Assembly: GCA_013202385.1 (NCBI GenBank)
Contig: JABMOT010000158.1
Span: forward strand, 1-62,151
Source: Fidelibacterota bacterium
GTDB taxonomy: Bacteria > Fidelibacterota > UBA8477 > JABMPR01
Reading direction: 5' to 3'
Length of the DNA stretch: 62,151 nucleotides
Positions 14,305-58,349 of this stretch are shown piece by piece. The translations under genes were made by a program, and so were the position numbers. Every line of letters begins with the position of its first letter. Positions within the stretch are counted from its first letter, which is position 1. Below the pieces are notes generated by a model that saw only the letters and a list, made by a program, of their open reading frames with translations, was not told the DNA's origin and searched no databases.

Positions 14305-14315
14305 GAATTAGTAAA

Positions 14316-14350: not shown

Positions 14351-14410
14351 ATTCGCTGCCTTTGGTAATCCAGGTTTCCAGTGTCAGCCATAGTTTGACA
14401 AGACGTGTCA

Positions 14411-14579: not shown

Positions 14580-14592
14580 CAATCTTAAATAT

Positions 14593-15633: not shown

Positions 15634-15641
15634 GGTAAGTG

Positions 15642-19202: not shown

Positions 19203-19213
19203 GCGCTTGTGAG

Positions 19214-21541: not shown

Positions 21542-21692
21542 ATATTCTCCAATATACCAATAGTTGAATTAGCCAGGTTAGTTTGTGATTCTTATCCAGG
21601 TCAGACTCCTCATAGTGTTTTCAACACTATCAGCCAGAGTGAATCAGCGTGTCATATTATACGGAAGCTTGCTCTCTTTGCTTCTCACTGAC

Positions 21693-22784: not shown

Positions 22785-22831
22785 GAATACTTCTCCAGGC
22801 TTTTGATGGACTTCTCACGATTTAATACTTA

Positions 22832-36321: not shown

Positions 36322-36324
36322 AAA

Positions 36325-39702: not shown

Positions 39703-39767
39703 ATCAAATAAAAAATTATCAAGGAGGATTGATGATGATTAACATAACCAAAGAAGGAGGGAGCATA

Positions 39768-42700
39768 ATGCTACCTAAACGTTACTTAATTAACCTAACA
39801 GTTACCCTGTTGGTTTTGCTGCCTGTGCTTTTGACCGCACAGCTGGCAGAAACATGGAAACTTGCTCCTGAGGCAGGTGCCTTGGTTGTTGGACCAAACC
39901 CAACTGATGTTTGGTGGGCAAACTCTGCCGGCGATGTTGAAACGCGAGCATGCTTGTGGGATGATGAGTATGTTTTTGGTGCAGATGGGACTTTTCATAA
40001 TGTCCAGCAAGACGAAACCTGGCTTGAAGGCTGGCAAACTGCTACGGAAGGCTGTGGAACTCCCGTTGCTCCTCACAATGACTCAAATGCCGCAACATGG
40101 GTCATTGATGAAGAAGCGGGTACGCTCACAGTGCTTGGAACGGGTGCCTATCTGGGTATTCCCAAGCCATTCAATGGTGGTGAGCTTTCAGACCCGGCTA
40201 ACGCCCCTGCTTCAATCACCTATGAAATAACGCTTTCAGAAGATGACAATGTGATGACCTTAGGCTTAGACATTAGCACAGGGTATTGGACTTTTAAGCT
40301 GGTATCACCTGACTGGGAACCGTATGTACCTAGTGGTCCTTTAGCGGCAGCTCCAACACCCACTGAACTTGAAGCTGATGTAATTTCAGTTTACAGTGAT
40401 GCCTATACAGATATTCTTGGCACCAACTTTAACCCCAATTGGGGACAGGCTACGGCTTATTCTGAAGTAATGATTGAAGACAACGCCACAATATTGTATG
40501 CTGGATTGAATTATCAGGGAATCGATTTAGGTAGCCATCAGGATGTTTCTGGAAAGGGCTACCTGCATATTGATTACTGGACCGCAAATTCTACGGCGCT
40601 AAACGTATTTTTGATAAGTCCAGGAACTCCCAATGTTGAAACTGCCTATGAATTACCAGTTAGTTTCGAAACCTGGATGAGCGTAGATATTCGTTTGAAT
40701 GACTTTGCACCTGTTGATTTGGCTGATATTTTTCAGTTCAAATTCGACGGCAATGGTGATATTTATTTAGACAATATCTATTTCCATGGAGTACCATGGG
40801 TACAACCTGATGATCTCGTCCTGAACGGTTTTGAGACCGCAGAAGAAATTGGCATTGGCGATGAGGCCTTCTGGCAATTTGATTATCCCGTTGAGTCCGA
40901 GGGTATCGACTTCATCACTTCCACACTTGTTAACAGTGCTGGATTACCTCAGGATGGTGTGGGTGCTGGTCAGTTTAACTATGCCGTTGAACACTACTAT
41001 CAATATGGTGGTTTTGCCTCTGTAAATCATATTGCAGATGATTATCTGGATATGTCTGGTCTCAACTATATCAGCTTTCAGATTCAGAACTACATTCCAA
41101 CCAATATTGATTCTTCAATGGCCCTACGCTTTACGCTCGCTGAGGCAAGTGAACAACCTGATCCAACCAAGTGGAGCAAGGACAGTTGCGAATTCTATTA
41201 CTCTTTCATCGAGGATGATTACTTCCTGGATGATGAAGCTGGCTCAGGCTGGTCAGAGATCAGGATTCCACTTATAAAATCAAGTTCCAATACAGGTGGA
41301 CAAGAGTATAATAATGGTTTTGTTCACACGGGTTGGGCTGGCATTACTGGTAATGATCAACTGGATCTGGATAAGATTGTTGGTTTTGGTTTTGAGTGGG
41401 TTTCCCCACCGTGGAACACAGTAATTGGTGATGTCATTACTGGAGCTGTCTGGTTTGACAATCTAAAAGCAATTTATTCCAATGATATATACGGTTGTAT
41501 GGATCCCTCAAGTCTCAACTATAATCCAGATGCCACTATCGACGACGAGAGCTGTCTCTATGACACGGATGTTGTGGATGTCACATTTGAATTGAATATG
41601 AGTATGCAGACCGTTAATGAAGAGGGAGTGCATATTGCAGGAGGAAATTATTTTGGTCCTCCTATCCCACGCTTCAAATTCAATGATGATGGAATCGCCG
41701 GTGATCGGATCGCCGGTGATGATATCTATACCATTGTCGTACAGTTGCTTAACAATTTCAACGAAAACTATACCTTCTCCAATGGCGCAGACCAGGATTT
41801 TCAGGACAAAGAAAATATTGCAGGTCAGTCCTGTGCAGATGGCCAATATAATGATCGTCGGCTTACAGTTGGTATAAATGATACAACTATTACCACTTGT
41901 TTCGCTGAATGTTCAGATGATGGCTCTTGCACTAATGTAGATATGGTCGATGTTACTTTCAGAGTCGATATGCGCGATCAGATCGTGAATGTTGCCGGTG
42001 TTTTTATGGCTGGTGGTGGTCTCGGTGATGATGGATATGTAATGGATGATTCTGACGGCGATGATGTATGGGAATTAGATATGAGCATCCCAGCAGGCAT
42101 TGAATTCTTCTGGAAGTTTAGAAATGGACCCACTCTCGGTGGCTGGCAAGGTGACTGGGAAGGTGGAGATAATGGTATCCAGTTAGGAGATGGTGGCTGT
42201 GGCGCGAATCAGTACAATGATCGCTCCGTGACCCTGGATGTTGATACAGTCCTTCCAGCATATTGTTTTGGTTACTGCTATGCATGTTCACCAGTGCATG
42301 ATGTCGTAGTCACATTCAGTGTGGACATGAGTGCTGAATCAGCCTTCAACCCTGCCACGGATGCACCTTATGTGATTAGCTCAATAGATGAGTGGAGTTT
42401 CGATAATATTGTGCTCTTTACTCAATCTGCTCTCAGTGGCGTCTGGGATGGAACTCTCACTTTATCTTCACGTGATACCGTAAACTATCTGTTTGTGTAT
42501 GGTGCTGGAACTTATGAAGATATGACGGGGGATGCATGCGCCGTTTATGATGATGTAGCCACCCTTGACGTACGTCAACTCATCATGCCCGTCGATGAAA
42601 CCACAGAATTCGAACCTGGAATACAGATATTTGGATCCTGTGCTTATGTTGGGGTTGATGATAAGAATCTCGCACTACCTACAGAGTTTCTGGTAAGTAC

Positions 42701-42956
42701 ATTTCCCAATCCCTTCAACCCGGATGTAACCGTCCAGTATCAGCTTCCTGCAGTTGAGGATATCAAAATCGATGTCTACAATATGTTGGGTCAGAGTGTC
42801 AAATCTCTGGTTAATAGACGACATGCTGGTGGACATTATAGTGTTGTCTGGAATGGTCGAAACGAAAATGGACAAGCAGTCGGAACGGGAATCTACTTTG
42901 TTGTGGTTACCCGTGCCTCTGGTACATCAGTATCAAAAGTGACGTTGCTTAAGTAA
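39768..42956 (+). CDS. Large multi-module T9SS cargo, putative surface glycan-binding protein
   Basis: The ORF-track start (39627) overlaps the SSF gene. ATG 39768 has a GAAGGAGGG RBS and gives the signal peptide MLPKRYLINLTVTLLVLLPVLLTAQ (alternative ATG at 39732). Contents: a WKLAPEAGALVVGP...RACLWDDEY module; one copy of module B shared with 19214-21541; a Cys-bounded CMDPSSLNYNPDATIDDESC motif; three VDVTF/VVVTF beta-sandwich-like repeats. CTD: FPNPFNPDVTVQYQL...GIYFVVV...KVTLLK. Confidence 0.7.
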   Translation: MLPKRYLINLTVTLLVLLPVLLTAQLAETWKLAPEAGALVVGPNPTDVWWANSAGDVETRACLWDDEYVFGADGTFHNVQQDETWLEGWQTATEGCGTPVAPHNDSNAATWVIDEEAGTLTVLGTGAYLGIPKPFNGGELSDPANAPASITYEITLSEDDNVMTLGLDISTGYWTFKLVSPDWEPYVPSGPLAAAPTPTELEADVISVYSDAYTDILGTNFNPNWGQATAYSEVMIEDNATILYAGLNYQGIDLGSHQDVSGKGYLHIDYWTANSTALNVFLISPGTPNVETAYELPVSFETWMSVDIRLNDFAPVDLADIFQFKFDGNGDIYLDNIYFHGVPWVQPDDLVLNGFETAEEIGIGDEAFWQFDYPVESEGIDFITSTLVNSAGLPQDGVGAGQFNYAVEHYYQYGGFASVNHIADDYLDMSGLNYISFQIQNYIPTNIDSSMALRFTLAEASEQPDPTKWSKDSCEFYYSFIEDDYFLDDEAGSGWSEIRIPLIKSSSNTGGQEYNNGFVHTGWAGITGNDQLDLDKIVGFGFEWVSPPWNTVIGDVITGAVWFDNLKAIYSNDIYGCMDPSSLNYNPDATIDDESCLYDTDVVDVTFELNMSMQTVNEEGVHIAGGNYFGPPIPRFKFNDDGIAGDRIAGDDIYTIVVQLLNNFNENYTFSNGADQDFQDKENIAGQSCADGQYNDRRLTVGINDTTITTCFAECSDDGSCTNVDMVDVTFRVDMRDQIVNVAGVFMAGGGLGDDGYVMDDSDGDDVWELDMSIPAGIEFFWKFRNGPTLGGWQGDWEGGDNGIQLGDGGCGANQYNDRSVTLDVDTVLPAYCFGYCYACSPVHDVVVTFSVDMSAESAFNPATDAPYVISSIDEWSFDNIVLFTQSALSGVWDGTLTLSSRDTVNYLFVYGAGTYEDMTGDACAVYDDVATLDVRQLIMPVDETTEFEPGIQIFGSCAYVGVDDKNLALPTEFLVSTFPNPFNPDVTVQYQLPAVEDIKIDVYNMLGQSVKSLVNRRHAGGHYSVVWNGRNENGQAVGTGIYFVVVTRASGTSVSKVTLLK

Positions 42957-43063: not shown

Positions 43064-45979
43064 ATGAATAGAATATTTACCTCCCTGATCCTCCTTTCAA
43101 TAATCTTTTCAAGTCTGTTTGCGCAGACCACCGGCAAAATCGCGGGAAAAATAAAAGATGCCGAAAATAAAGAGCCCATGATTGGCGTAAATGTTATTGT
43201 AGATGGAGCTGGTGTGGGAGCAGTGACTGATATAGATGGATATTATGACATCATTAATTTGTCTCCTGGCACTTATACGGTAAAAGTTTCAATGATTGGC
43301 TATGAGATATATGTCGTTGAAGAAGTTCGGGTTTCTACAAATCGAACAACATATCTGGATGCCGATCTCAATAGTAGCCTCTTGGAGGGGACTGAAGTAG
43401 TCGTTACCGCCAGTAAAATTTCAACCAAGCGGGATCAAACCAGCACGGTAAAAAATATTTCTGGCGACGATATGCAGATTTTACCAGTTGAGAGTATTGG
43501 TGCGGTAGTCAATATGCAGGCTGGCGTCGTTGCAGGGCATTTTCGGGGTGGTCGTAGCGGCGAAGTGAGTTATTTAATCGATGGTATAAAGGTAGATGAA
43601 GTTTTTGGTGGAAATAGCGCCACTGTAAGTGTTGAAACTGAAGCTGTCCAGGATCTGGAAGTAATAACCGGTACCTTTAACGCAGAGTATGGAAATGCCA
43701 TGAGTGGCATTGTAAATGCTGTTACCAGAAACGGTGAAGAACAGTTTCACGCCAGTCTGTCTTCATCGATTTCCACGTATTTCACAACAAATAATTTTGA
43801 AGATGAAGAAGATATCTTTCTCGGTTTAAAGCCGTTTGGGTTCACCGGCAAAAAGGAAGATCAATTTAATCTAAATACAAACTATGATAATAAACTTATG
43901 CTTACCGGTCCCATTCTAGGTGATCGGATCGGATTTTTTATAAATTATCGGGAACAGGTTACGGCAGGTCATTTAAACGGAATTAGACGTTTTAACATTT
44001 GGGATCTAAGTGATTACGCTGCATCTGATTCTATAGAGTGGCAAGACATACATACTGGAGATAGTAGCTTCGTTTCCATGAGCTCCAGCAAACACACGTC
44101 TCTTATGACAAAAATTTCTTTTAAGCCAAATCCTAAAATACGCTCCTCCATCATGTTCAACCGAAATGTGGATGAATGGCAGGGATATAGCCATTTCAAT
44201 AAATATAATCCTGATGGTGTTAATAAAAATAACTCCAACACGGATTTTATCGCTTTTCAATTGAATCACATGCTTTCCAACTCATTTTTCTATGACCTTA
44301 AGCTCAGTCAGTCCACCAATTATTATGGGAACTACCTGTTTAAAGACGAACAGTCAATCTACACAATCGCCAGTGCTGAAGGTGCGTATGATCATGTTTT
44401 GTATTTTCCTGACAATACCCTGTACTCTATTAGAGGTGCCTGGTATGAAGAAGGGGATACGGTTTATAATTACATCCATGATTTATATGCCAATTCATAC
44501 GGACCAGGGTTCTCACTGGGTGGTCAGGATAAAGGTCACACAGAGCGAGAAACCACAACTAAAAACGTAAAATTTGATATGACCTGGCAGGTGAATAATA
44601 CGCATAGCCTGAAAACAGGTTTTCAAGTATCCCAGCACGATATCACCAGCGCTTATCACCTCATCAAAAATGCCTATGCAGGCACGGCGGATGAATATAA
44701 GTATAAACCGATAATGCTTGGGAATAACACACTGGATGCTGATAGCTATCGGAAGAAACCCGTAGATGGATCTTTCTATTTGCAGGATAAGATGGAATTC
44801 GATGAGATGGTCATCAATCTCGGTTTGCGTTATGATCATTTTGACGCCAACACTGTTTATCCATCTCAGAGACGAAATCCGGCCAACAGCTCGACTTACT
44901 TTTTAAAAGACTCGCTGGGTAATAACATATTGGAATGGGATGCCGAGCTTTCAGATAGTGTCAAAGTCCTCGATGAATCCAGAATGTCGGAGTATTTAGA
45001 CTCAAAATCTGTGTATCAGATAAGTCCTAGATTTGGACTGGCCTATCAACTGGGCAATCGGGCCGTATTGCACTTTAGTTATGGTCACTTCTTTCAAATG
45101 CCATCATACTCAGCCATTTACAGCAATGATGCCTTTCTTGTCGGTTCAGCTGATTATGGAACCACGATGGGAAACGGCAACCTTGGAGGAGAGACCCTGG
45201 GATTAAATGCACAGAAAACAGTAAGTTATGAAATAGGTTTATGGCAAGAACTTGCCGAGGGTTTAGGATTGGAAGTCAACCTTTACTATCGTGATATCTA
45301 CGATTTACTCACAGCAGCTGTTGTAACAACCTATAACCAGATAAACTATGGTTTATATACCAATAAAGACTATGGCAACGTGAGAGGTCTTGAAGTCAAA
45401 CTCGACTTCAACAAAGGTGGCTTTCGTACCAATCTGAATTATACCCTGCAATATACCAAAGGTAATGCTGACAATCCTCAGCAGACCTTTAACCGGGCTG
45501 GAGCAAAAATTGATGAAGTCAATAAAATGATTCCCATGAGCTGGGATCAACGACATACCTTTAACCTCTCGGCGGGATTCACCGCCCCCAATTATGGAGG
45601 TTTTTTTACTGGATACATCAATTCGGGTACCACTTACACCTATTCTCCAATGACGGGGAGTACACTCACCAATATTAATCTAGCCCCCAACAACAATTAT
45701 CGGGCAGCGGGTTATCATGTGGATTTCACAGGATATGTTCAACTGCCGCTGGTGTTTGGAGTTCACGCCCGAATGAATCTGTCAGTTTATAATGTGCTTG
45801 ATCGTTATAATGAGAATTGGGTTAATGGCACTACAGGACGAGCCTATTCTGATGTGGTGGAAGAAGGCGATCTTGAGGGGCACCGAAGTAAATTCAATGA
45901 ATATGCAGATATTTACAAAAACCCTGCAATGTTTAGCACACCTCGTGAAATAAAAATTGGTTTGGAAGTAGACTTATAG
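43064..45979 (+). CDS. TonB-dependent receptor with an N-terminal carboxypeptidase-regulatory-like domain
   Basis: 971 aa with a signal peptide. CarbopepD_reg-like: GKIAGKIKDAENKEPMIGVNVIV...TDIDGYYDIINLSPGTYTVKVSMIGYE. Plug: GDDMQILPVESIGAVVNMQAGVV...GGRSGEVSYLIDGIKV. A long beta-barrel region follows. Confidence 0.85.
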   Translation: MNRIFTSLILLSIIFSSLFAQTTGKIAGKIKDAENKEPMIGVNVIVDGAGVGAVTDIDGYYDIINLSPGTYTVKVSMIGYEIYVVEEVRVSTNRTTYLDADLNSSLLEGTEVVVTASKISTKRDQTSTVKNISGDDMQILPVESIGAVVNMQAGVVAGHFRGGRSGEVSYLIDGIKVDEVFGGNSATVSVETEAVQDLEVITGTFNAEYGNAMSGIVNAVTRNGEEQFHASLSSSISTYFTTNNFEDEEDIFLGLKPFGFTGKKEDQFNLNTNYDNKLMLTGPILGDRIGFFINYREQVTAGHLNGIRRFNIWDLSDYAASDSIEWQDIHTGDSSFVSMSSSKHTSLMTKISFKPNPKIRSSIMFNRNVDEWQGYSHFNKYNPDGVNKNNSNTDFIAFQLNHMLSNSFFYDLKLSQSTNYYGNYLFKDEQSIYTIASAEGAYDHVLYFPDNTLYSIRGAWYEEGDTVYNYIHDLYANSYGPGFSLGGQDKGHTERETTTKNVKFDMTWQVNNTHSLKTGFQVSQHDITSAYHLIKNAYAGTADEYKYKPIMLGNNTLDADSYRKKPVDGSFYLQDKMEFDEMVINLGLRYDHFDANTVYPSQRRNPANSSTYFLKDSLGNNILEWDAELSDSVKVLDESRMSEYLDSKSVYQISPRFGLAYQLGNRAVLHFSYGHFFQMPSYSAIYSNDAFLVGSADYGTTMGNGNLGGETLGLNAQKTVSYEIGLWQELAEGLGLEVNLYYRDIYDLLTAAVVTTYNQINYGLYTNKDYGNVRGLEVKLDFNKGGFRTNLNYTLQYTKGNADNPQQTFNRAGAKIDEVNKMIPMSWDQRHTFNLSAGFTAPNYGGFFTGYINSGTTYTYSPMTGSTLTNINLAPNNNYRAAGYHVDFTGYVQLPLVFGVHARMNLSVYNVLDRYNENWVNGTTGRAYSDVVEEGDLEGHRSKFNEYADIYKNPAMFSTPREIKIGLEVDL

Positions 45980-45980
45980 A

Positions 45981-48900
45981 ATGAATACAATAAACAAACT
46001 CCGATTAGCTATCATATTCAGCTTTGTCCTTGGCTTGCCATTGGTTTTAAGCAGCCAGGGGAGACCTTATGATGGACCCATTGATGTCGCTGGCGATTTT
46101 GACGCCGAACGTGAAGGAACGATGAATGGAAATCGCATTCATCTTGAGTTTACAAACAATACCGAATTATCCAATTGGCCTGATGAAGCCGCATCCAAGT
46201 GGCCCAATAATAATTCCGGATACAAAATGCTTGATGGTATTGGATTGCTGGTAGGAGCCAGGGTCTACATTGAAAACGATTTGGATGATACTACAGTGGA
46301 CTCGATTGTGGTCACAGATCCAAATATCATTGCATCAGATCCTGATCTCCATATCCTGCATTTTTTGCAAACCAGTTACCGCGAACATATGGATCGAAGC
46401 GATACCAGTAGTACGGAGTGGGGTTTTTATCCGGTATGGGGATATTTTAACGAATTGAGTGAACACCCTGCCATGAGTAATGATACGCTGACATGGCCAG
46501 TTGAAGGTTGGCCAAAAGGGGGATATGCCAGGGAATGGCCGCTGGAATGGGATGGACGATTCGGTCGAGGTATCCAATATGCTGATCTAGAGACTTACTT
46601 TGTGGTTAATGATGCCCAGGACCAGGAATATCTTGGCGACGATGATATGGTAAAATACTACCCCAGACCCGGGAAAATCATAGGCCAAGAAGGACACGAC
46701 ATTACAATTCAAAACGGAGCTCCCTGGGGAGGTTTAGGGCTCCGGGTCGAGACCCGTGGATTCCAATGGAATAATCCCCAAGTACGGGACGCGCTTTTCT
46801 GGGAATACAATATCACCAATAATTCAGTTTATGATCTTCCTGAAGTCTGTTTTGGATATTGGGTAGACAACGCCATTGGTGGCGAAGGTCCCGATGATGA
46901 CATTGGGTTTTATAACGCTGAGTTGGATCTCGCGTATTCGTGGGATAAGGATGAGTCAGCCTCAGACGGCGGCACTCCTGGAATTATGGGGTTTGCATAT
47001 CTGGAGAGCCCTGGACTTGCCTATGACAATATGGATAACGATGATGATGGTCTGATTGATGAGAAACGAGACAATCAAGCTACTGTTCTCCTCCCTGGAG
47101 CCACCGATGGGATTTATGATCTGGAGAAATTTTTAAATTTTTACGGTTTAAAAGAGTCCGAATTGAAAGCCCATTGGGATGCTGATGAAGATCAAGATTG
47201 GCAAGATGGTGATGATTTAAACGGTGATGGATTCTACCAGGCTTCTGAACCCTATGGTGATGATGTGGGTCTGGATGGATTGGGACCCCTGGATTTGAAT
47301 TATCCCGGGCGCGATCAGGGCGAGTGCAACCACATGCCCGATTATGATGAGGCTCTGGGCTGCGAACCAAATTTTGCTGAGACCGATGTGAGTGAGTCGG
47401 ACATGCTGGGATTAACATCTTTTCAGCTCTTTACAATCGTAGGCGTACCAGATGGTCCAGCACCTCCTGGAACAAAGTGGTTTAGCAACGACGAAATTAT
47501 GTGGGATATGGTTGCAGCAGATACACTTGTCAAATTGTACGACGTAAATGCCAACCTGGTGGAATTATTTGCCTCTGGTCCATTTCCCTTATTCGCAGGG
47601 AGAACCGAAAGAATATCCATGGCTGAGCTTCACTCAACCGATGAGAATATGGCAACACCAGATTATGTAGCTCCCGCCTTGTACGAGTTAAAATCCGTGG
47701 TTCAGTTGATTTATGAATCAGATTATCGTTTCGCACAACCACCCCTGATGCCCACCCTTGAAGCCACTGCTCTAGATGGAAAAGTGATTTTAACCTGGGA
47801 TGATCGCTCGGACAAACTTACCCGTGATCCATTCATCGGCAACGTGAACGATTTTGAAGGTTACAAACTCTATAAGTCAACGGACAAATTCTTTGAAGAT
47901 TCCGAAATAATAACCGATGGCTATGGTTTACCAACATTCAAAGACCCTATCTTTGAGTGCGATTTAGTGGACTCTGTATTCGGTTTTGCTGGATTCGGCT
48001 TGGTGAATGGTATTGCCTTTAACCTTGGAACAGAAACCGGGCTTAAACATTATTTTATTGATGATAAGGTGGAGAATGGCAGAACATACTATTATGGTTT
48101 AACTGCCTATGATTATGGGATCAGCACCAGTACTCCTGGTATTGCGCCGTCTGAAAACAATCTGGTGGTAAGTATCAACGAATACGACGAGATTTTAGGC
48201 GTCGGCAAGAATGTTCAGATTGTAACCCCCAGAAGTACGGCGGCTGGCTTTCATGATCCGGTTGTATTACTTGATTCCCTCCAAAAACCCACACTCGGCA
48301 GTGGCTCCATTTCACCCACTATCTTTGCCAGGGATCAGGTTAAAGATGGGCATAGCTATGAAGTCAGCTTCCTAATAGATACACTTAAGACTAAAATAGG
48401 TAACATCTTTTACCCAAGCAATTATATAACAAAGGGCTATCAGGTTATGGATGTTACTGGTGCAGAACCCCTCATGGTCCATAGTGAATCTTACCTCGAC
48501 TCCCTGGGCAACCCTAATTATATAGATGATAATATTGTCTATGATGAAGACTTGCGAGTATGGGTCCTCAACTCAGATACCTTGCTCTATACCGATATTT
48601 TTGATGGTATCCAGCTTCAAATTGATCAGAATGTGACCCTTCCTGAATTAGATATGGGACCATTTGCCACTGGCTGGATAAATGGCTCGCCTATCAACCA
48701 TATGTTAGTTTCGCTCACAAGGCGTGAAACCAATCTATTTCCATTTGATTATGAAATTGTTTTCACTGGCGACTCGTTGGCATATACCAGTCAGGTGGGA
48801 TCCAACACCGGTATCCGGGGTGAGAACGACAACGGGCTATGGTTTCCACCAAAAATTATTCTGAACCAGTCTTTTGACTTCTATGTGCTCAATACGAGTC

Positions 48901-49526
48901 TGCTCGATTCTAATGGTAATCACCCAGTAATGGATCTGGTGGTCCAGGATCATTTTGGTCCAACTTGGGGTCTTGATGGTAATTTTAACAAATTTCAGGA
49001 CAAAATCCTTGTGGGCAGCATCGATAGCTCCGCCAAATGGTTGGGTACGGCCTTTGTAATCGATTTTATCGGGGGTGGAGAGTTTGACTATCCTGGAGTT
49101 GGTGATAGATATCAACTTAGCTTTAAAAGGCAATTCTGGAGTTCAGACACCATCCGGTTTACCACAAGTTCCGTCCCTGAGCTCGATCTCGTTCGTGAGG
49201 CTCAAACCATGGACAGTATCAAGGTGGTTCCAAATCCATATGTTGGTACGAACGCCATGGAACAGGCCTTGAGGAACCGTCTCTTGAACCAGCCACGCAA
49301 GTTAATGTTCACCCATCTTCCAGCGAGCTGTACAATCAGAATATTCACATCCTCAGGGGTTTTGATAAAAACCATTGACGTAGCTAACGCGGCGGCCAAT
49401 GGGTCTATGCATTGGAACCTGCTTACTGAGGAAAATTTAGAGATTGCGGCGGGTATGTACATCTACCATGTCGAGTCCATGGAATCTGGCAGAGAACATA
49501 TTGGAAAATTTGCGGTGTTGAAATGA
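45981..49526 (+). CDS. 1181-aa secreted protein of unknown function with acidic Ca-binding-like repeats, an FN3-like segment and a variant CTD-like C-terminus
   Basis: It starts 1 nt after the receptor stop codon and has a signal peptide. Acidic stretches: DNMDNDDDGLIDEKRDN and DADEDQDWQDGDDLNGDGFY...GDDVGLDGLG. FN3-like: LDGKVILTWDDRSDK...FEGYKLYKS...GRTYYYGLTAYDYG. C-terminus: VVPNPYVG...CTIRIFTSSGVLIKTI...GMYIYHVES...GKFAVLK. Confidence 0.6.
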   Translation: MNTINKLRLAIIFSFVLGLPLVLSSQGRPYDGPIDVAGDFDAEREGTMNGNRIHLEFTNNTELSNWPDEAASKWPNNNSGYKMLDGIGLLVGARVYIENDLDDTTVDSIVVTDPNIIASDPDLHILHFLQTSYREHMDRSDTSSTEWGFYPVWGYFNELSEHPAMSNDTLTWPVEGWPKGGYAREWPLEWDGRFGRGIQYADLETYFVVNDAQDQEYLGDDDMVKYYPRPGKIIGQEGHDITIQNGAPWGGLGLRVETRGFQWNNPQVRDALFWEYNITNNSVYDLPEVCFGYWVDNAIGGEGPDDDIGFYNAELDLAYSWDKDESASDGGTPGIMGFAYLESPGLAYDNMDNDDDGLIDEKRDNQATVLLPGATDGIYDLEKFLNFYGLKESELKAHWDADEDQDWQDGDDLNGDGFYQASEPYGDDVGLDGLGPLDLNYPGRDQGECNHMPDYDEALGCEPNFAETDVSESDMLGLTSFQLFTIVGVPDGPAPPGTKWFSNDEIMWDMVAADTLVKLYDVNANLVELFASGPFPLFAGRTERISMAELHSTDENMATPDYVAPALYELKSVVQLIYESDYRFAQPPLMPTLEATALDGKVILTWDDRSDKLTRDPFIGNVNDFEGYKLYKSTDKFFEDSEIITDGYGLPTFKDPIFECDLVDSVFGFAGFGLVNGIAFNLGTETGLKHYFIDDKVENGRTYYYGLTAYDYGISTSTPGIAPSENNLVVSINEYDEILGVGKNVQIVTPRSTAAGFHDPVVLLDSLQKPTLGSGSISPTIFARDQVKDGHSYEVSFLIDTLKTKIGNIFYPSNYITKGYQVMDVTGAEPLMVHSESYLDSLGNPNYIDDNIVYDEDLRVWVLNSDTLLYTDIFDGIQLQIDQNVTLPELDMGPFATGWINGSPINHMLVSLTRRETNLFPFDYEIVFTGDSLAYTSQVGSNTGIRGENDNGLWFPPKIILNQSFDFYVLNTSLLDSNGNHPVMDLVVQDHFGPTWGLDGNFNKFQDKILVGSIDSSAKWLGTAFVIDFIGGGEFDYPGVGDRYQLSFKRQFWSSDTIRFTTSSVPELDLVREAQTMDSIKVVPNPYVGTNAMEQALRNRLLNQPRKLMFTHLPASCTIRIFTSSGVLIKTIDVANAAANGSMHWNLLTEENLEIAAGMYIYHVESMESGREHIGKFAVLK

Positions 49527-50620
49527 GAAATAATATAAGGATAATTACGAAGCTAACACTTTTGGGTCTCTTTTTGGTGAGTTCTCTATACGCTCAGAAA
49601 CCCTATCGATATGGCACGACAGCAGCCAGTTTTCTTGAAATTGGAATCGGCTCGGCCGTGGCAATGGGTGAGGCTTATGTAAGTGTAGGTAAGGATATTT
49701 CTTCAATCTACTGGAATCCTGCTGGTCTAGCCTTTCAAGAACGAAACGAGATGATTGTCATGGATCAATCCTGGGTGGCTGGCATAGCCAACAGGTACGC
49801 TGGCATCGCGATCACAATTCCAAATGTTGGTAACATCGGATTGACTATTAACCATGTAGATTTTGGTAGTATTGCTGTTACAAACCTAAAGTATCAGGAC
49901 GGCACGGGAGAATTTTATCGGGCATCGGAATACGCCATGGCGCTTACCTATGCCCGCTCCATTGTAAATTGGTTCTCTTTTGGTGTGACCACCAAATATA
50001 TCGGCTCTACAATATGGCACAGCGGAGCCAATGCGCTGGCTCTGGATCTGGGTGTTTCCATTATTACCGAATTTCTGAGTCCTACCGGGAACAAGAAAGA
50101 AGGCATGCGGATTGGAATGAGTATTTCAAATTATGGATCTAAAATGTCTTATAGCGGCATCGATATGCTTAATGCCATCGATATTTTACCGGATGAAGCT
50201 GGTAATTATTCAGCAGTTCAAGGTGTATATCGAACGGAGTCCTGGGATCTCCCCGTAATTTTTAGAGCTGGGATATCATTCTATCCCCTATATACGCACA
50301 AACAGAATCTGCTGTTCGCCATTGACGTGCTCCATCCCAATAACAATAGTGAATCCCTTAATTTGGGACTTCAATATGATCTATCCTTCATCCGTGATAC
50401 GCATATCTATTTACGGACAGGTATGCGCGGGTTGTATTTGGTTAATGCAGATGAAGAGTTATCGCTATTTGGAGCTAATATTCCCTACTCAGCGTTAACA
50501 TACGGGGGTGGACTGGAATTTAGACTGTTTGGAGGACAGGCTGTTGCCTTGGATTATGCTTACAGATCAATGGGTATTCTAGGCTATGCAAACTCATTTA
50601 CATTGACATATCAATTCTAG
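49523..50620 (+). CDS. PorV/PorQ-family outer-membrane beta-barrel protein
   Basis: 365 aa. The start overlaps the upstream stop (ATGA). Signal peptide. Family N-terminal pattern: AASFLEIGIGSAVAMGEAYVSVGKDISSIYWNPAGLAF. C-terminal ...TLTYQF, with the terminal Phe typical of OMPs. Confidence 0.7.
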   Translation: MRNNIRIITKLTLLGLFLVSSLYAQKPYRYGTTAASFLEIGIGSAVAMGEAYVSVGKDISSIYWNPAGLAFQERNEMIVMDQSWVAGIANRYAGIAITIPNVGNIGLTINHVDFGSIAVTNLKYQDGTGEFYRASEYAMALTYARSIVNWFSFGVTTKYIGSTIWHSGANALALDLGVSIITEFLSPTGNKKEGMRIGMSISNYGSKMSYSGIDMLNAIDILPDEAGNYSAVQGVYRTESWDLPVIFRAGISFYPLYTHKQNLLFAIDVLHPNNNSESLNLGLQYDLSFIRDTHIYLRTGMRGLYLVNADEELSLFGANIPYSALTYGGGLEFRLFGGQAVALDYAYRSMGILGYANSFTLTYQF

Positions 50621-50641
50621 TTCTGTATTAATATATAGCTG

Positions 50642-52159
50642 ATGGATAAGCTAAATATCAATGGAATTGTATTTGTCATTGTTTCCTCTTTTCTGTTTCT
50701 GATTTCCTGCGAAAGAAAAGAGCCGGATCGGTACCCTGACTCAGTTGTTCTGGCCCGCGTGGGTGACCGCGTGATAACAAAATCTGAATTTGTTCGTCGT
50801 GCAGAATACACACCCAGACCAGCTTATTGTCGGGGGGATAATAATATTCATAAAAAGATCGTTCTCAATTCTCTCATCGCCGAAAAACTTTTAGCACTTG
50901 ATGTCCTCTCAAAACCTCAATACAAAGCACCCGCTAAACTGGAAGATTACATCCAGGGGAGACGGGAGCAGGCCATGCGCCAATCGTACAGGTACGAGTA
51001 TGGGATGAAGCGGGTTGAAACCTCGGATGAAGAATTGAAGTATAGTTTCAAGATAGCCAGCCGTGAATACAAATTGGGATTCATCACGCTGCCTGATTCC
51101 CATTATGCATATGCTACAAAGCAATTTCTGGATGATGGAGCAAGCTTTGAGAGTATCTATTCCAGGATTTTTGGAACTCAGGAGCTTGAAATCAAAAAGG
51201 TGTCCTGGTTTGATGACGATGATCCGAAAATTAGAGAGGCACTCTACAGTCAGTCGCTGAAAAAAGATACCGTTGTAGGACCCCTTGAACTTAGCGATGG
51301 AAAGTTTCTCATTTTTAAAGTGGTTGGCTGGCAAGATAATTTGCACCTCAGCGAATCGGCCAAGGGGACATTTTGGGATGATGTCATTTCAAAAGTCAAG
51401 CAGCGCAAAGCCAACCTGCTGTATAACGAGCATGTGGCCAATCTCATGCGTGGTAAAAGTTTTTTATTAGAAGAGGCGGCTTTTCGGCCATTGGTGGAGA
51501 ACCTGTCTGAGCAGTATCTCATGAAAGAGTCTGAAAAAGGGTCCATGTTAAATGAGACTATCTGGGAGTTGGAAAAACAACATTTGAGCCCTGACAACTC
51601 TGACGCTGGCGCTTTACATATGGATCAGGTACTATTTCGATTTGACGGTAAGGACTGGTTGATAAAAGACTTTTATGATTTGCTCTCAAGACACCCCCTT
51701 GTTTTTCGAAAAAAACGCTTCGAAATGTCAGAATTTGCAGAACAGCTAAAGTTCTCTATTGCAGATTTACTCAAGGACTATATTGTCACAGGCGAAGCGT
51801 ATAAAGAGGGTTTTGGTGATCGTAAAGAAACTATAAGCTATGGTCAAATGTGGCAGGATCAGTATTTATCAGGAATTTACAAGGAGCTATTCAATTACTC
51901 ACTGGCTGACAGCATCACTCAATCTCCGAATTCAATTTACTTTATCGAAGCCTATATGAATCCGATTATCGATAGTCTGCAGGTGAAATACTCTGATGTT
52001 ATTTCCATCAATTTCGACCTGTATGATGATATAAAGCTCACACACATTGATATGTTTGTTGCCGAGGAGAATGTTCCCTATCCAGTGGTAGTCCCGCCAT
52101 TTCCCCAGATAACAACCGATCATGTATTTGACTATGGGAGCAAGCTTGTACTCAAATAA
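50642..52159 (+). CDS. SurA/PpiD-like lipoprotein (putative periplasmic chaperone with a degenerate parvulin-like segment)
   Basis: 505 aa. Lipobox FLISC. The N-terminus LARVGDRVITKSEFVRR resembles the SurA N-domain. VVGPLELSDGKFLIFKVVG resembles the end of a parvulin fold. The assignment is weak. Confidence 0.35.
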   Translation: MDKLNINGIVFVIVSSFLFLISCERKEPDRYPDSVVLARVGDRVITKSEFVRRAEYTPRPAYCRGDNNIHKKIVLNSLIAEKLLALDVLSKPQYKAPAKLEDYIQGRREQAMRQSYRYEYGMKRVETSDEELKYSFKIASREYKLGFITLPDSHYAYATKQFLDDGASFESIYSRIFGTQELEIKKVSWFDDDDPKIREALYSQSLKKDTVVGPLELSDGKFLIFKVVGWQDNLHLSESAKGTFWDDVISKVKQRKANLLYNEHVANLMRGKSFLLEEAAFRPLVENLSEQYLMKESEKGSMLNETIWELEKQHLSPDNSDAGALHMDQVLFRFDGKDWLIKDFYDLLSRHPLVFRKKRFEMSEFAEQLKFSIADLLKDYIVTGEAYKEGFGDRKETISYGQMWQDQYLSGIYKELFNYSLADSITQSPNSIYFIEAYMNPIIDSLQVKYSDVISINFDLYDDIKLTHIDMFVAEENVPYPVVVPPFPQITTDHVFDYGSKLVLK

Positions 52160-53147
52160 TAATTATAGTTTCGTATGGATTACAGCTTTTGCCTTACTCA
52201 CATCAATGGTGTCATGTGAATCGGCGTCCAGCACATTGAAAGAAAAAGTAGACATCGTCAGAGGTTGCATGGATACAAACGCTCTGAATTACGACAGTCT
52301 TTCCACTGAAGATGATGGGAGCTGTCAATATTATGGTTGTACAGATTCCAGTGCCTACAATTATGATCCGGATGCGACGAATGATGATGGCAATTGTATT
52401 TCGCCTTCACTGGTTCCAGATGGTTGGGAATTGGTCTGGAACGATGAATTCAATGCTGACGCCATTAATGAAGCCAAATGGAATCATGAGAGCTGGGCGC
52501 CAGGTCGAGTCAATAACGAGCTTCAAGAATACACCAGAAACTTGCAGAATTCAGGAGTGAACCAGGGTTACCTGTATATCACAGCGCGCAAAAACAATCC
52601 CTTCGATGCGGCGAATCCAGTTTATAATTCAGCTCGGATGCATACGAGGAGGAAGGGGGATTGGAAATATGGTCGTGTTGAAGTTCGTGCCAAAATGCCC
52701 AGAGGGCAGGGACTCTGGCCAGCCATCTGGATGATGCCCAGCTATTCGGTATATGGTGGATGGCCGGTAAGTGGTGAAATAGATATCATGGAATTCCTAG
52801 GTCACGATCTCTCCCGCGTGTATGGAACAATTCATTATGGGAATTACTATCCTGACAAGAGCTCAACTGGAACATCCTATGTATTACCAGCAGGTGATTT
52901 TTCTGAATCATTTCACACTTTCGCCCTTGAATGGGAAGCCAATGAATTACGTTGGTACGTGGACGATATACTTTATCAAACGCTTAACAACTGGTACTCA
53001 ATCGGTGGGGAATACCCAGCACCCTTTGATCAGGAATTTCATCTCATTTTAAATGTAGCCGTTGGTGGTGAATGGCCAGGGAATCCTGATCCATCCACAC
53101 TATTTCCACAGACAATGCTGGTTGACTATGTGCGGATTTTCCAGTAG
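52122..53147 (+). CDS. GH16 laminarinase-type lipoprotein with two N-terminal Cys-bounded 20-aa motifs
   Basis: 341 aa. Lipobox LLTSMVSC. Motifs: ELVWNDEFN, catalytic SGEIDIMEF (E-I-D-I-M-E, the form with the extra residue typical of laminarinases), FHTFALEW, RWYVDD, LNVAVGG.W. The 5' end overlaps the upstream gene by 38 nt, so a later start is possible. Confidence 0.85.
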   Translation: MYLTMGASLYSNNNYSFVWITAFALLTSMVSCESASSTLKEKVDIVRGCMDTNALNYDSLSTEDDGSCQYYGCTDSSAYNYDPDATNDDGNCISPSLVPDGWELVWNDEFNADAINEAKWNHESWAPGRVNNELQEYTRNLQNSGVNQGYLYITARKNNPFDAANPVYNSARMHTRRKGDWKYGRVEVRAKMPRGQGLWPAIWMMPSYSVYGGWPVSGEIDIMEFLGHDLSRVYGTIHYGNYYPDKSSTGTSYVLPAGDFSESFHTFALEWEANELRWYVDDILYQTLNNWYSIGGEYPAPFDQEFHLILNVAVGGEWPGNPDPSTLFPQTMLVDYVRIFQ

Positions 53148-53301
53148 AGCTGATTTTGAGCAAAAGGGGGCAATATAGCAATTCCAGTAGCATGACCGGC
53201 AAGTTCACATTCGGTCCTCATCCCGGAATATTGATTGACCAATCGACACGCTCCAAATCAACTTCAAAATCCTTACTCCTGATTCAAACGGGACAACAAA
53301 A

Positions 53302-54396
53302 TTGACCCATTTTTATTCAATTTCTACACGAGGCCTCGGCATCCTGATCTTGATCTGGATCCAAACTTTATCTTTAATGGCAAAGGACTACCGTGGAGCC
53401 GAATTGCGTACGATTGAGACTTTTCAATATGGTCGCTTCGAAGCGCGCATTAAATCGGCACCCCATTCTGGGACGGTTTCAAGTTTATTCACTTACCACG
53501 AGCTTGGCGGTGCAGGTATTCAGGATTGGAGCGAAATTGATATTGAGTTCTTAGGGCGTTATACGGATCGGGTACAATTCAATACGATCACTGACTGGCA
53601 GATAAATCACGAGCACTTTGTTACTTTGGATTATGACCCCGCGACAGAATTTCATGATTATGCTTTTGAATGGACTCCCAGCTATGTGGCCTGGTTTGTT
53701 GACGGCATCGAAGTATACCGCCAGGTAATGGGTCATATTGTAGAATTGAATCGATATCAAAAACTGATGATGAACATTTGGCTACCGAACTATCCTGGCT
53801 GGGTTGGGACCTTTAATCCGTCTGATCTTCCCATCTATGCTTATTATGACTGGGTGAGTTACTGTGAGTATACACCTCTGAGTGGAAATACCGGTTCATC
53901 AAATAATTTTACTCAACTGTGGCGAGATGACTTCGATGGATGGGATACGAATCGTTGGCAAAAAGCCAGCCATACCTGGGATGGTAACAATTGCGATTTT
54001 ACGCCAGCTAATGTGGTTTTTAATGGTGGTTTCATGATTTTATGCCTGACAACCCCTTCAAATACTGGCTATGATGGCCCCGCTCTGGCGGTTGATGGAG
54101 GGCAGGGCCGGATTCCTTCTGATTTGCGTCTTAATCCAGCCTGGCCAAACCCCTTTAATGCCACTACCAATCTGGTAGTGGAAGGTTTTTCGGAGGGTGA
54201 GCTTACCCTGCAAATCCATAGCCTGACTGGCAGTCTGATTCGCTCTGAAATTATCGCGGCCAATCCTGTTGGTTCCCATACATTGCAGTGGAATGGTCAG
54301 GATAATCTTGGCGAATTGGTTTCCAGCGGTTCCTATATCATCCAGGTAATTTCTGGCAAAGATCAGATTTGTCAAAAAGTCGTCCTGCTGAAATGA
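53302..54396 (+). CDS. GH16 (lichenase-type active-site spacing) + extra domain + T9SS CTD
   Basis: 364 aa with a TTG start and a signal peptide. Motifs: YGRFEARIK, catalytic WSEIDIEFLG (E-I-D-I-E, without the extra residue), FHDYAFEWTP.YVAWFVDG. CTD: WPNPFNATTNLVVE...GSYIIQVIS...KVVLLK. Confidence 0.8.
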   Translation: MTHFYSISTRGLGILILIWIQTLSLMAKDYRGAELRTIETFQYGRFEARIKSAPHSGTVSSLFTYHELGGAGIQDWSEIDIEFLGRYTDRVQFNTITDWQINHEHFVTLDYDPATEFHDYAFEWTPSYVAWFVDGIEVYRQVMGHIVELNRYQKLMMNIWLPNYPGWVGTFNPSDLPIYAYYDWVSYCEYTPLSGNTGSSNNFTQLWRDDFDGWDTNRWQKASHTWDGNNCDFTPANVVFNGGFMILCLTTPSNTGYDGPALAVDGGQGRIPSDLRLNPAWPNPFNATTNLVVEGFSEGELTLQIHSLTGSLIRSEIIAANPVGSHTLQWNGQDNLGELVSSGSYIIQVISGKDQICQKVVLLK

Positions 54397-54420
54397 TCAA
54401 AATTAAGGCAATTTAACGAG

Positions 54421-58338: not shown

Positions 58339-58349
58339 AAAGAATACAA

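What the first reader, a model, noticed from the sequence alone, without database searches (positions are those of the whole stretch)
43064..52159. SusD-less outer-membrane cassette: TonB-dependent receptor, 1181-aa secreted protein, PorV/PorQ-like barrel, SurA-like lipoprotein
Seen: four genes with gaps of 1 nt, a 4-nt overlap and 21 nt. The fourth gene then overlaps the GH16 gene. The receptor has the CarbopepD_reg N-domain typical of SusC-like proteins, but no SusD-like gene follows. In its place is a giant protein with a CTD-like end, then a PorV/PorQ-family barrel.
Known: PorV shuttles T9SS cargo, and SusC normally pairs with SusD.
Inference: this may be an alternative glycan-import complex in which the giant protein, possibly tethered through the PorV-like barrel, plays the substrate-delivery role. 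I know of no characterisation of such a cassette.
Basis: partly seen in the sequence, partly recalled or inferred. Interest (0 to 1): 0.7.

Follow-up and report, generated by a model that had tools for sequence, protein, structure and literature searches.

The report
SusD-less outer-membrane glycan uptake module
A tightly linked gene set (TonB-dependent outer-membrane transporter, an uncharacterised 1,181-residue secreted protein, a PorV-like barrel and a folding helper) sits in a marine Marinimicrobia beta-glucan locus and recurs in sugar-degradation loci of several related phyla; it probably does the job that SusC/SusD does in Bacteroides, and I found no study of it.

Summary
The four ORFs lie at the stated coordinates with the stated junctions: a 1-nt gap, an ATGA overlap and a 21-nt gap.

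The domain calls hold, with one correction. The receptor has the CarboxypepD_reg domain, a plug and a barrel, but it is not a SusC/RagA-family member (47 bits against a 368-bit cut-off).

The 1,181-aa protein belongs to a large family with no annotation: about 3,300 clusters at 50% identity and no Pfam or NCBIfam model for its body. It ends in a divergent, unusually conserved T9SS-type C-terminal domain (CTD).

In 52 of 54 GTDB loci with room on both sides, the receptor, the large protein and the PorV/PorQ-family barrel are adjacent. The loci are labelled Marinimicrobia, KSB1, Calditrichota, Ignavibacteriota, Rhodothermales/Balneola and others. About half also carry the PrsA/SurA-like lipoprotein.

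The neighbouring enzymes vary (GH16, GH10, a GH9-like gene, xylose genes), so this is a general glycan-locus core. Rhodothermus marinus, which is cultured, has it in its published xylan locus, where the genes were left as 'hypothetical'.

Best reading (about 0.5): a TonB-dependent glycan importer whose surface partner is secreted by the T9SS and held on its own PorV-like barrel. Physical association, tethering and substrate binding are inferred, not shown. I rate it a new variant of a known kind, of high interest.

The parts
38095..39702 (+). Sodium:solute symporter (SSF), the likely inner-membrane sugar importer; a frequent upstream neighbour of the module
   Evidence: Pfam SSF, E 1.4e-91. 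SSF homologues lie upstream of the module in many related loci.
39627..42956 (+). 1109-aa T9SS cargo protein (type-A CTD) directly upstream of the receptor; homologues carry CBM9
   Evidence: TIGR04183 Por_Secre_tail, 34 bits (cut-off 23). Pfam FlgD_ig also passes its cut-off; Pfam Por_Secre_tail is just under (25.9 against 27). Homologous neighbours are CBM9_1 + Por_Secre_tail proteins. Recurrent.
43064..45979 (+). TonB-dependent receptor/transporter, 971 aa, signal peptide ending ...LFA|Q
   Evidence: Pfam barrel E 6.6e-27, Plug, CarbopepD_reg_2. SusC/RagA TIGR04056 scores only 47 bits against a 368 cut-off. No SusC among PDB sequence matches.
43139..43405 (+). N-terminal CarboxypepD_reg-like domain of the receptor (res 26-114)
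   Evidence: PF13715, E 3.9e-19.
43394..43411 (+). TonB-box-like motif EVVVTA (res 111-116), between the N-domain and the plug
   Evidence: Motif position. Its reading as a TonB box rests on my knowledge of SusC-like transporters, so it is an inference.
45981..49526 (+). 1181-aa secreted protein of an unannotated family (the 'giant' protein); Sec signal peptide, mature N-terminus probably Q26
   Evidence: No Pfam or NCBIfam hit for the body. At least 1828 homologues. 3329 clusters at 50% identity. AlphaFold2 model with pLDDT 89 and pTM 0.81. Q26 is invariant among close homologues.
46056..47750 (+). Conserved N-terminal body (res 26-590), beta-rich
   Evidence: Per-block conservation and secondary structure of the model.
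47016..47420 (+). Acidic, loop-rich insert (res 346-480) with DNDDDG / DADEDQD / DLNGDG motifs and invariant Asp/Glu; looks like Ca2+-binding loops
   Evidence: 27% Asp+Glu against 16% overall, motifs listed. Invariant D352, D354, D356, E361, D402, D428, E462, D469, E472, D474. Ca2+ binding is an inference.
47751..48155 (+). FN3-like conserved domain (res 591-725; DFEGYK..., NGRTYYY)
   Evidence: Conserved motifs were used successfully as search patterns. Foldseek hits to FN3 arrays. Conservation.
48228..49130 (+). Fast-evolving beta-sandwich region (res 750-1050)
   Evidence: 14-26% block identity against 35-52% elsewhere. Only 31-34% even in laminarin-type orthologues that are 55-70% identical elsewhere.
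49206..49523 (+). Divergent T9SS-type CTD (res 1076-1181; VVPNPY ... GKFAVLK), with an extra stretch after PNPY that the window's type-A CTDs lack (alignments)
   Evidence: hhalign against the window's type-A CTDs: probability 97.5%, E 8e-12. More conserved than the protein body (0.62 against 0.52), the opposite of cargo CTDs in the same loci.
49523..50620 (+). PorV/PorQ-family outer-membrane barrel, 365 aa; start overlaps the giant's stop (ATGA); ends ...TYQF
   Evidence: NF033709, 162.7 bits against a 90 cut-off. The PorV, PorQ and PorV2 equivalogs are all far below cut-off. PDB PorV 6h3i_F, E 1e-6.
50642..52159 (+). PrsA/SurA/PpiD-like parvulin-type chaperone lipoprotein, 505 aa (lipobox LISC)
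   Evidence: Family profile against PrsA 4wo7, E 2e-11. Rotamase_2 and SurA_N hits in family members. The family is present in 34 of 78 related loci, mostly right after the PorV-like gene.
52122..56382 (+). Downstream enzymes: GH16; GH16 + CTD; GH5 + CBM6 + CTD (T9SS cargo)
   Evidence: Pfam. The same order occurs in other Marinimicrobia loci.

Best explanation
This is the outer-membrane core of a beta-1,3-glucan (laminarin-type) utilisation locus in a Marinimicrobia (SAR406) genome. It is built on a plan that several Fibrobacteres-Chlorobi-Bacteroidetes (FCB) group phyla share, one that does not use SusD.

Proposed mechanism:
1. GH16 and GH5 enzymes carrying T9SS CTDs are displayed or released at the cell surface and cut the glucan.
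2. The 971-aa TonB-dependent transporter imports the oligosaccharides into the periplasm.
3. SSF, MFS and ABC systems encoded in the window carry them into the cytoplasm.
4. The 1,181-aa protein is exported by Sec and secreted by the T9SS through its CTD.
5. Unlike ordinary cargo, it keeps that CTD and stays bound through it to the dedicated PorV/PorQ-family barrel encoded next to it, as PorU does on PorV and PorZ on PorQ. This would place a large Ca2+-stabilised surface protein beside or over the transporter, where it captures or hands over glycan. That would make it a functional counterpart of SusD or the surface glycan-binding proteins.
6. The PrsA/SurA-like lipoprotein helps fold or assemble these large envelope proteins.

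Shown: gene content, domain homologies, tight coupling, conserved synteny across phyla, association with varied glycan loci, and the atypical conservation of the CTD.

Inferred: CTD retention, the tether, contact with the transporter, glycan binding, and the client of the chaperone.
For: - The window is a beta-glucan locus: GH16 x2, GH5, GH17, GH30, GH3, a GH149-like gene, SSF, MFS, ABC. This receptor is its only TonB-dependent receptor.
- The junctions suggest translational coupling.
- Receptor, giant and PorV-like genes are adjacent in 52 of 54 GTDB loci with room. Median gaps are 22 and 14 nt.
- Bit scores of the three proteins co-vary across loci (Spearman 0.85 and 0.83).
- The same core sits with GH10 xylanases, xylose-catabolism genes, a GH9-like gene and GH35/42-like genes, often with a LacI regulator. 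It therefore behaves like a PUL core.
- There are paralogous copies in one MAG (L029 and L040) and tandem giants (L015).
- The giant's CTD is homologous to type-A CTDs, yet more conserved than its body. Cargo CTDs in the same loci are much less conserved than their bodies.
- Precedent for uncleaved CTDs held by cognate PorV-like barrels: PMC10202324.
- The chaperone family recurs in 34 of 78 loci.
Against: - No direct evidence of a complex. No multimer prediction could be run.
- The variable region does not track the linked enzyme family, and no known carbohydrate-binding module is detectable in the giant. A glycan-binding role is therefore unsupported.
- In Rhodothermales the module lies in the same locus as a classical SusC/SusD pair. 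It is thus not simply a replacement for SusCD.
- The best structural matches are PorZ and PorU, but with TM-scores of only 0.07-0.13. That could point to a secretion or attachment role instead.
- The chaperone is missing from about half the loci.
Confidence: 0.5

Rival explanations
1. A locus-dedicated T9SS display device. The giant protein and its PorV-like barrel form a local attachment or scaffold platform, comparable to PorZ-PorQ or PorU-PorV. The platform would hold or process the neighbouring CTD-bearing enzymes and CBM9 proteins at the surface. It would be linked to the receptor only by co-regulation, with no part in transport itself.
For: - Foldseek's best hits are PorZ (E 1.7e-8, probability 1.0) and PorU.
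- CTD-bearing enzymes and a CBM9-CTD protein flank the module almost everywhere.
- The conserved part of the giant does not depend on substrate.
Against: - TM-scores of 0.07-0.13 mean there is no real global fold match.
- No invariant Cys or His, so it is not a PorU-type sortase.
- The near-obligatory adjacency and tight junctions with the receptor are not explained by a display role alone.
Confidence: 0.25
2. The giant protein is itself a surface enzyme, a new carbohydrate-active family that perhaps depends on Ca2+. The barrel would merely anchor it.
For: Many invariant Asp/Glu residues in a conserved core. There is no annotation to contradict the idea.
Against: - The same conserved core goes with beta-1,3-glucan, xylan and a GH9-like gene context. 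That would be unusual for one catalytic specificity.
- The acidic residues sit in DxDxDG-type loop motifs, which are typical of Ca2+ binding rather than catalysis.
- No match to any solved enzyme by sequence and no convincing one by fold.
Confidence: 0.1
3. A general (housekeeping) T9SS or envelope-biogenesis component that only happens to lie in a glycan locus here. In a variant of this idea, the receptor exports the giant protein, as Myxococcus Oar is reported to export PopC (recalled from memory).
For: PorV-family barrels and peptidyl-prolyl isomerases both occur in core envelope machines: a PorV chain is deposited in PDB 6h3i, and peptidyl-prolyl isomerases co-purify with Bacteroides BamA (PMC12578637). 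The giant is well conserved.
Against: - Several paralogous copies occur in one genome, and there are tandem giants.
- The module is always embedded in varied sugar-utilisation loci with LacI-type regulators.
- The barrel fails the PorV, PorQ and PorV2 equivalog models.
- The giant carries its own T9SS signal, so it needs no other exporter.
Confidence: 0.07

Closest known systems
SusC/SusD (RagA/RagB) core of Bacteroidota polysaccharide utilisation loci
   Same: A TonB-dependent transporter with an N-terminal CarboxypepD_reg-like domain sits in a glycan locus. The gene right after it encodes a cell-surface protein. Different copies of the core go with different enzyme sets, regulators and inner-membrane transporters.
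   Different: - The receptor is not in the SusC/RagA family (47 bits against a 368 cut-off; no SusC match in PDB).
- The partner is not a SusD-family protein and is not a lipoprotein: no SusD-family hit, and its signal peptide has no Cys (first Cys at residue 290). It is a 1,181-aa beta-rich protein with a T9SS-type CTD.
- A PorV-like barrel and often a parvulin-type chaperone belong to the set.
- It co-occurs with a true SusC/SusD pair in Rhodothermales.
PorU-PorV and PorZ-PorQ pairs of the T9SS attachment complex
   Same: A CTD-bearing surface protein is paired with a PorV/PorQ-family barrel. In the known pairs the CTD is not cleaved and serves as the anchor (PMC10202324). PorZ and PorU are the top Foldseek hits.
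   Different: - Those pairs are single-copy housekeeping parts of the secretion system. This pair is multi-copy and embedded in glycan loci next to a TonB-dependent receptor.
- There are no invariant Cys/His residues of the kind a Cys-protease sortase would need (that PorU is a Cys protease is from memory).
- The barrel fails the PorV and PorQ equivalog models.
- There is no global fold match (TM 0.07-0.13).
Type-B CTD cargo with cognate PorP/SprF-like barrels (e.g. SprB-SprF)
   Same: The cargo and its own dedicated outer-membrane barrel are encoded side by side. The barrel is proposed to anchor the cargo at the surface (PMC10202324).
   Different: The barrel belongs to a different family (PorV/PorQ, not PorP/SprF). 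The CTD is closer to type A. There is no link to gliding adhesins, and here the pair is tied to a TonB-dependent receptor.
PrsA / SurA / PpiD parvulin-type chaperones
   Same: The fourth gene's family matches PrsA (E 2e-11). Members hit the SurA_N and Rotamase models. Like PrsA, it is a lipoprotein.
   Different: The window copy's own Rotamase_2 hit is below cut-off (15 bits against 27), so isomerase activity is uncertain. It is encoded within a glycan locus rather than as a general chaperone.

Membership tests
SusC/RagA family TonB-linked outer membrane protein | Score at or above the curated cut-off of TIGR04056 | tested here: not met
   47 bits against a 368.25 cut-off.
SusC/RagA family TonB-linked outer membrane protein | A SusD/RagB-family lipoprotein gene immediately downstream | tested here: not met
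   The next gene is the 1181-aa protein, 1 nt away. No SusD Pfam hit in the window. In 52 of 54 related loci the next genes are the giant or the PorV-like gene.
SusC/RagA family TonB-linked outer membrane protein | N-terminal CarboxypepD_reg-like domain ahead of the plug | tested here: met
   PF13715, E 3.9e-19, res 26-114. The domain is shared with other receptor families, so it does not define membership.
TonB-dependent transporter (general) | Plug domain plus TonB-dependent receptor barrel | tested here: met
   PF07715, 34.2 bits (cut-off 23.9); PF00593, 95.9 bits (cut-off 27).
TonB-dependent transporter (general) | A functional TonB box and energy-dependent import | not testable with these tools
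   An EVVVTA motif at res 111-116 resembles the TonB box of SusC-like proteins (from memory).
PorV/PorQ family outer-membrane barrel | Score at or above the cut-off of NF033709 | tested here: met
   162.7 bits against 90. PDB PorV 6h3i_F, E 1e-6.
PorV proper / PorQ proper / PorV2 (equivalogs) | Score at or above the cut-off of NF033710 / NF033711 / NF052325 | tested here: not met
   75 against 250, 67.8 against 220, and 65.9 against 325.
T9SS type-A C-terminal sorting domain (PF18962 / TIGR04183) | Match to the curated CTD models | tested here: not met
   No Por_Secre_tail hit for the window protein at E <= 0.01. Only FlgD_ig at E 0.037. Only 1 of 25 family members hits PF18962 weakly.
T9SS type-A C-terminal sorting domain (PF18962 / TIGR04183) | Homology of the last ~75 residues to bona fide CTDs | tested here: met
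   hhalign, family CTD profile against seven CTDs from the window: probability 97.5%, E 8.4e-12.
T9SS cargo | Secretion that depends on the T9SS; fate of the CTD (cleaved or retained) | not testable with these tools
   Only indirect evidence: the CTD is more conserved than the body, unlike cargo CTDs in the same loci.
PorU (C25-type CTD signal peptidase/sortase) | Conserved catalytic Cys/His in a peptidase domain (the requirement itself is from memory) | tested here: not met
   No invariant Cys or His among 64 family members. No Peptidase_C25 hit. The NF033707 match covers only the CTD (14 bits against 420).
PrsA/SurA/PpiD-like parvulin chaperones | SurA_N-like domain plus parvulin (Rotamase) domain | tested here: met
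   At family level. Profile against PrsA 4wo7, E 2e-11. Rotamase_2 in 10 of 23 members and SurA_N_2 in 7 of 23. Clear Rotamase hits in the Rhodothermus and Rhodocaloribacter copies. The window copy alone is below cut-off.

The most novel reading that the evidence does not exclude
FCB-group bacteria outside the classical Bacteroidia (Marinimicrobia/SAR406, KSB1, Calditrichota, Ignavibacteriota, Rhodothermota) may use a previously unrecognised class of glycan-uptake machine. In it, a TonB-dependent transporter would be physically coupled to a T9SS-secreted protein of about 1,150 residues from a new family. That protein would be permanently held by its uncleaved CTD on a dedicated PorV-like barrel. 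This would be a second, SusD-independent solution to surface capture and import of polysaccharides, and a direct structural link between type IX secretion and TonB-dependent import.
Probability: 0.35. Interest if true: 0.85.

Novelty: new variant of a known kind. Interest (0 to 1): 0.72.

Why it matters
Polysaccharide utilisation loci are normally found by searching for SusC/SusD pairs. That search would not detect a core like this one, which has no SusD and whose receptor fails the SusC/RagA model.

One study notes that Marinisomatota MAGs lack most common sugar transporters yet carry many TonB-dependent receptors (PMC8630151). How that phylum takes up algal glycans such as laminarin is, as far as I know, unresolved.

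A conserved three- to four-gene core would help in several ways:
- It gives a marker for glycan loci in these phyla.
- It gives a function to a protein family of about 3,300 clusters at 50% identity, whose named members are all called 'hypothetical' or 'FlgD Ig-like domain-containing'.
- It raises a testable link between the T9SS and TonB-dependent import.

It can be tested in culture, because Rhodothermus marinus, Rhodocaloribacter litoris, Rubrivirga marina and a Balneola strain all carry it.

Tried and rejected
1. Giant plus PorV-like as a divergent housekeeping PorU-PorV pair, with the 505-aa protein as a T9SS-associated isomerase. Rejected for four reasons: there are no invariant Cys/His; paralogous copies exist; the module is always embedded in varied glycan loci; and the barrel fails the PorV and PorQ equivalogs.

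2. Variable region 750-1050 as a substrate-specific binding site. It is 15-19% identical to the window protein in GH16-linked Ignavibacteria loci and in GH10-linked loci alike. This gives no support; it is simply the fastest-evolving part.

3. First AlphaFold2 run with 34 close homologues: a poor model (pLDDT 57). A 64-sequence diverse alignment gave pLDDT 89.

4. Whole-chain Foldseek gave only low-TM multi-domain matches.

5. Sequence and profile searches of the giant against PDB, Pfam and NCBIfam found nothing for the body.

6. The sigma-70 promoter and terminator scan was uninformative. Rfam found nothing in the window.

7. Ten literature searches found no description of the module. The library does not cover most subscription journals.

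8. A single-sequence phmmer search under-counted the chaperone. An HMM of its family raised the count from 21 loci to 34 of 78.

9. A possible link to Cytophaga hutchinsonii outer-membrane cellulose-utilisation proteins (recalled from memory) could not be tested.

Full report
**Observation**

The four ORFs exist exactly as described: 43064-45979 (971 aa), 45981-49526 (1181 aa), 49523-50620 (365 aa) and 50642-52159 (505 aa), followed by a GH16 ORF from 52122. The junctions, read from the DNA, are TAG-A-ATG (1-nt gap), ATGA (4-nt overlap) and a 21-nt gap.

The window is a beta-glucan utilisation region:
- Enzymes and transporters: two GH16, GH5 (some with CBM6 or CBM9), GH17, GH30, GH3, GH2-like, a GH149-like protein, glucoamylase-like proteins, SSF and MFS transporters, ABC components.
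- Regulator: a sensor kinase with a sigma-54 activator.
- At least eight proteins carry T9SS C-terminal sorting domains (CTDs).
- No SusD-family hit was found, and there is no second TonB-dependent receptor.

The best homologues of the large protein come from Marinimicrobia (Neomarinimicrobiota, SAR406) MAGs, at up to 86% identity.

**The four proteins**

(i) Receptor.
- It has CarbopepD_reg_2 (res 26-114), a plug and a TonB-dependent barrel, with an EVVVTA motif between the N-domain and the plug.
- It is not a SusC/RagA-family member: TIGR04056 gives 47 bits against a cut-off of 368. A PDB sequence search returns no SusC.

(ii) The 1181-aa protein.
- It has a Sec signal peptide with no lipobox; its first Cys is at residue 290.
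- Q26 is invariant among close homologues.
- Its body has no Pfam or NCBIfam match, even when 25 diverse members are scanned, and no PDB sequence match.
- With a diverse 64-sequence alignment, AlphaFold2 gives a confident model (pLDDT 89, pTM 0.81).
- Layout along the chain: a beta-rich conserved body (26-590); within it an acidic, loop-rich insert (346-480; 27% Asp+Glu; DNDDDG, DADEDQD and DLNGDG motifs; ten invariant acidic residues); an FN3-like domain (591-725); fast-evolving beta-sandwiches (750-1050); and a C-terminal beta-sandwich.
- Foldseek against the PDB ranks PorZ first (E 1.7e-8) and PorU third. TM-scores are only 0.07-0.13, and the remaining hits are FN3 arrays and complement MG-domain proteins. 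I read this as 'multi-domain beta surface protein', not as a fold assignment.
- The last ~75 residues are homologous to the window's own type-A CTDs (hhalign 97.5%, E 8e-12). There is an extra stretch after the PNPY motif that those CTDs lack, and the end is a highly conserved GKFAV(I/L)K.

(iii) The 365-aa protein passes the PorV/PorQ family model (162.7 bits against 90). It fails the PorV, PorQ and PorV2 equivalogs. It matches F. johnsoniae PorV in PDB 6h3i.

(iv) The 505-aa protein has a lipobox (LISC). Its family profile matches PrsA (E 2e-11), and members hit Rotamase_2 and SurA_N models.

The exception is 'SusC-like', which holds only for the N-terminal domain.

**Conservation elsewhere**

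The large protein's family is big and unnamed:
- At least 1828 hits in one search, every named one 'hypothetical'.
- 3329 clusters at 50% identity with E <= 1e-3, of which 380 have E <= 1e-30.

A scan of one genome per GTDB species found at least 558 loci. The best 79 carry labels of Marinimicrobia, KSB1, Calditrichota, Ignavibacteriota, Rhodothermales/Balneola and Stahlbacteria. Some MAGs are labelled Bacteroidota, Cytophagia or Chitinophagales; I did not verify those labels.

I annotated ORFs in these loci with the window's proteins and counted:
- 52 of 54 loci with room on both sides have both a receptor homologue and a PorV-like homologue within 6 kb.
- Median gaps are 22 nt (receptor to giant) and 14 nt (giant to barrel).
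- Four loci have the order receptor, barrel, giant.
- Bit scores of the three proteins co-vary (Spearman 0.85 and 0.83). This is also what inheritance as a unit would give.

An HMM of the chaperone family finds it in 34 of 78 loci, and in 17 of 31 loci with at least 7 kb on both sides. It usually lies right after the barrel gene, and sometimes upstream of the receptor.

A CBM9-plus-CTD protein and an SSF symporter are common upstream neighbours.

**Context varies with the glycan**

- Close homologues (54% identity or more), including KSB1 and Calditrichota, sit with GH16, GH5 and GH3, as in the window.
- More distant members sit with two GH10 xylanases (L085).
- Others sit with xylulokinase and a xylose-isomerase-like gene (L088).
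- Others sit with a GH9-like gene (L034), GH35/42-like genes (L041), and LacI regulators or ABC binding proteins.
- One Marinimicrobia MAG has two copies on different contigs (L029, L040), and a KSB1 locus has three tandem giants (L015).

This is how a PUL core behaves, not a housekeeping gene.

**Cultured carriers**

Rubrivirga marina, Rhodocaloribacter litoris and Balneola sp. MJW-20 carry family members. The cluster of P0374 contains Rhodothermus marinus proteins such as WP_161552431.1.

The R. marinus locus reads: LacI, receptor, giant, PorV-like, CBM9/CTD, GH10, Rotamase chaperone, ECF sigma, FecR, SusC-like (L092). This matches, gene for gene, the published xylan locus Rmar_1067-1078. 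There Rmar_1070 is a 'TonB-dependent receptor', Rmar_1071-1073 are 'hypothetical proteins' (two with a Por sorting domain), and a susC/susD pair follows (PMC6987092).

So the module has been seen in print, but it was not recognised or studied. It can also co-exist with a classical SusC/SusD pair. L078, a Rhodothermales chromosome, likewise has a SusD gene about 3 kb upstream of the receptor gene.

**Evidence on mechanism**

In T9SS biology, PorU and PorZ keep their CTDs and are held by PorV and PorQ. A review suggests that cognate PorV-like barrels protect CTDs from cleavage and anchor their partners (PMC10202324).

I compared CTD and body conservation within the same set of loci:

| Protein | Body identity | CTD identity |
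|---|---|---|
| GH5 cargo | 0.53 | 0.32 |
| GH16 cargo | 0.51 | 0.27 |
| Giant | 0.52 | 0.62 |

The giant's CTD is among its best-conserved parts across the whole family. That fits a lasting, specific protein-protein contact rather than a disposable signal. The ATGA overlap with the barrel gene points the same way.

There are no invariant Cys or His residues, so a PorU-like protease role is unlikely.

One test went against a simple SusD analogy. The variable region (750-1050) is equally diverged in GH16-linked Ignavibacteria proteins and in GH10-linked proteins (15-19% identity). It therefore does not look like a conserved substrate-specific site, and no known CBM is detectable.

**Conclusion**

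The best-supported reading (confidence about 0.5) is a SusD-independent glycan-uptake core linked to the T9SS:
- The TonB-dependent transporter imports oligosaccharides made by the neighbouring CTD enzymes.
- The large protein is secreted by the T9SS and stays on its dedicated PorV-like barrel next to the transporter, as a capture or lid component.
- The PrsA/SurA-like lipoprotein assists assembly.

The main rival (about 0.25) is that the giant and its barrel form a local display or attachment platform for the locus's CTD proteins, with no direct part in import. Lesser rivals are a new surface enzyme, and a housekeeping or export role.

All the components belong to known kinds. The large protein's family, and the conserved combination of genes, are undescribed in the literature I could search (ten searches; most subscription journals are not covered). 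I therefore rate it a new variant of a known kind, of high interest, and directly testable in R. marinus.

Noticed in passing
window 7337-8846: About 1.5 kb between an ABC permease gene and an aldo/keto reductase gene has no ORF of 80 aa or more on either strand. It has no Rfam match, no tRNA and only short chance-level repeats. This is unusual in an otherwise tightly packed region; it could be a decayed gene (for example a missing ABC ATPase) or a regulatory region.
   Followed up: partly
window 9957-12146 (+), 15642-19202 (-), 57571-59033 (+); also L003-L005: There are two CotH-kinase-family proteins with T9SS CTDs, one of which also has lamin-tail and Fn3-associated domains. There is also a VTC-domain plus DUF4956 gene pair. 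A CotH gene also flanks the laminarin-type module in other Marinimicrobia contigs. The role of secreted CotH-like proteins in a glucan locus is unclear.
   Followed up: no
window 22832-26161 (-): A 1109-aa protein has no Pfam hit and only a partial, far sub-threshold match to the GH149 beta-1,3-glucan phosphorylase model (125 bits against a 1150 cut-off). It sits between GH17 and GH30 genes and may be a divergent beta-1,3-glucan phosphorylase-like enzyme.
   Followed up: no
window 33485-37770 (+): A solute-binding protein, a histidine kinase and a sigma-54-dependent response regulator lie just upstream of the SSF/receptor block. They are a likely regulator of the locus. Related loci in other phyla use LacI-type regulators instead.
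   Followed up: no
window 56515-57561 (+); L014 19099-19452: A 348-aa ORF with no Pfam hit lies downstream of the GH5-CBM6-CTD gene. It is conserved at the same position in another Marinimicrobia locus.
   Followed up: no
L015 282-10980 (KSB1); L072 622-6419 (Calditrichia): Tandem paralogues of the large protein occur: three in a row in L015, followed by a single PorV-like gene, and two in L072 ahead of the receptor. If the tether model is right, several large proteins may share one barrel.
   Followed up: no
L092 (Rhodothermus marinus) 5902-23432; L078 609-2306: In Rhodothermales the module lies in the same xylan-type locus as an ECF-sigma/FecR-regulated SusC/SusD pair. This is a natural system in which to compare the two uptake designs side by side.
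   Followed up: partly
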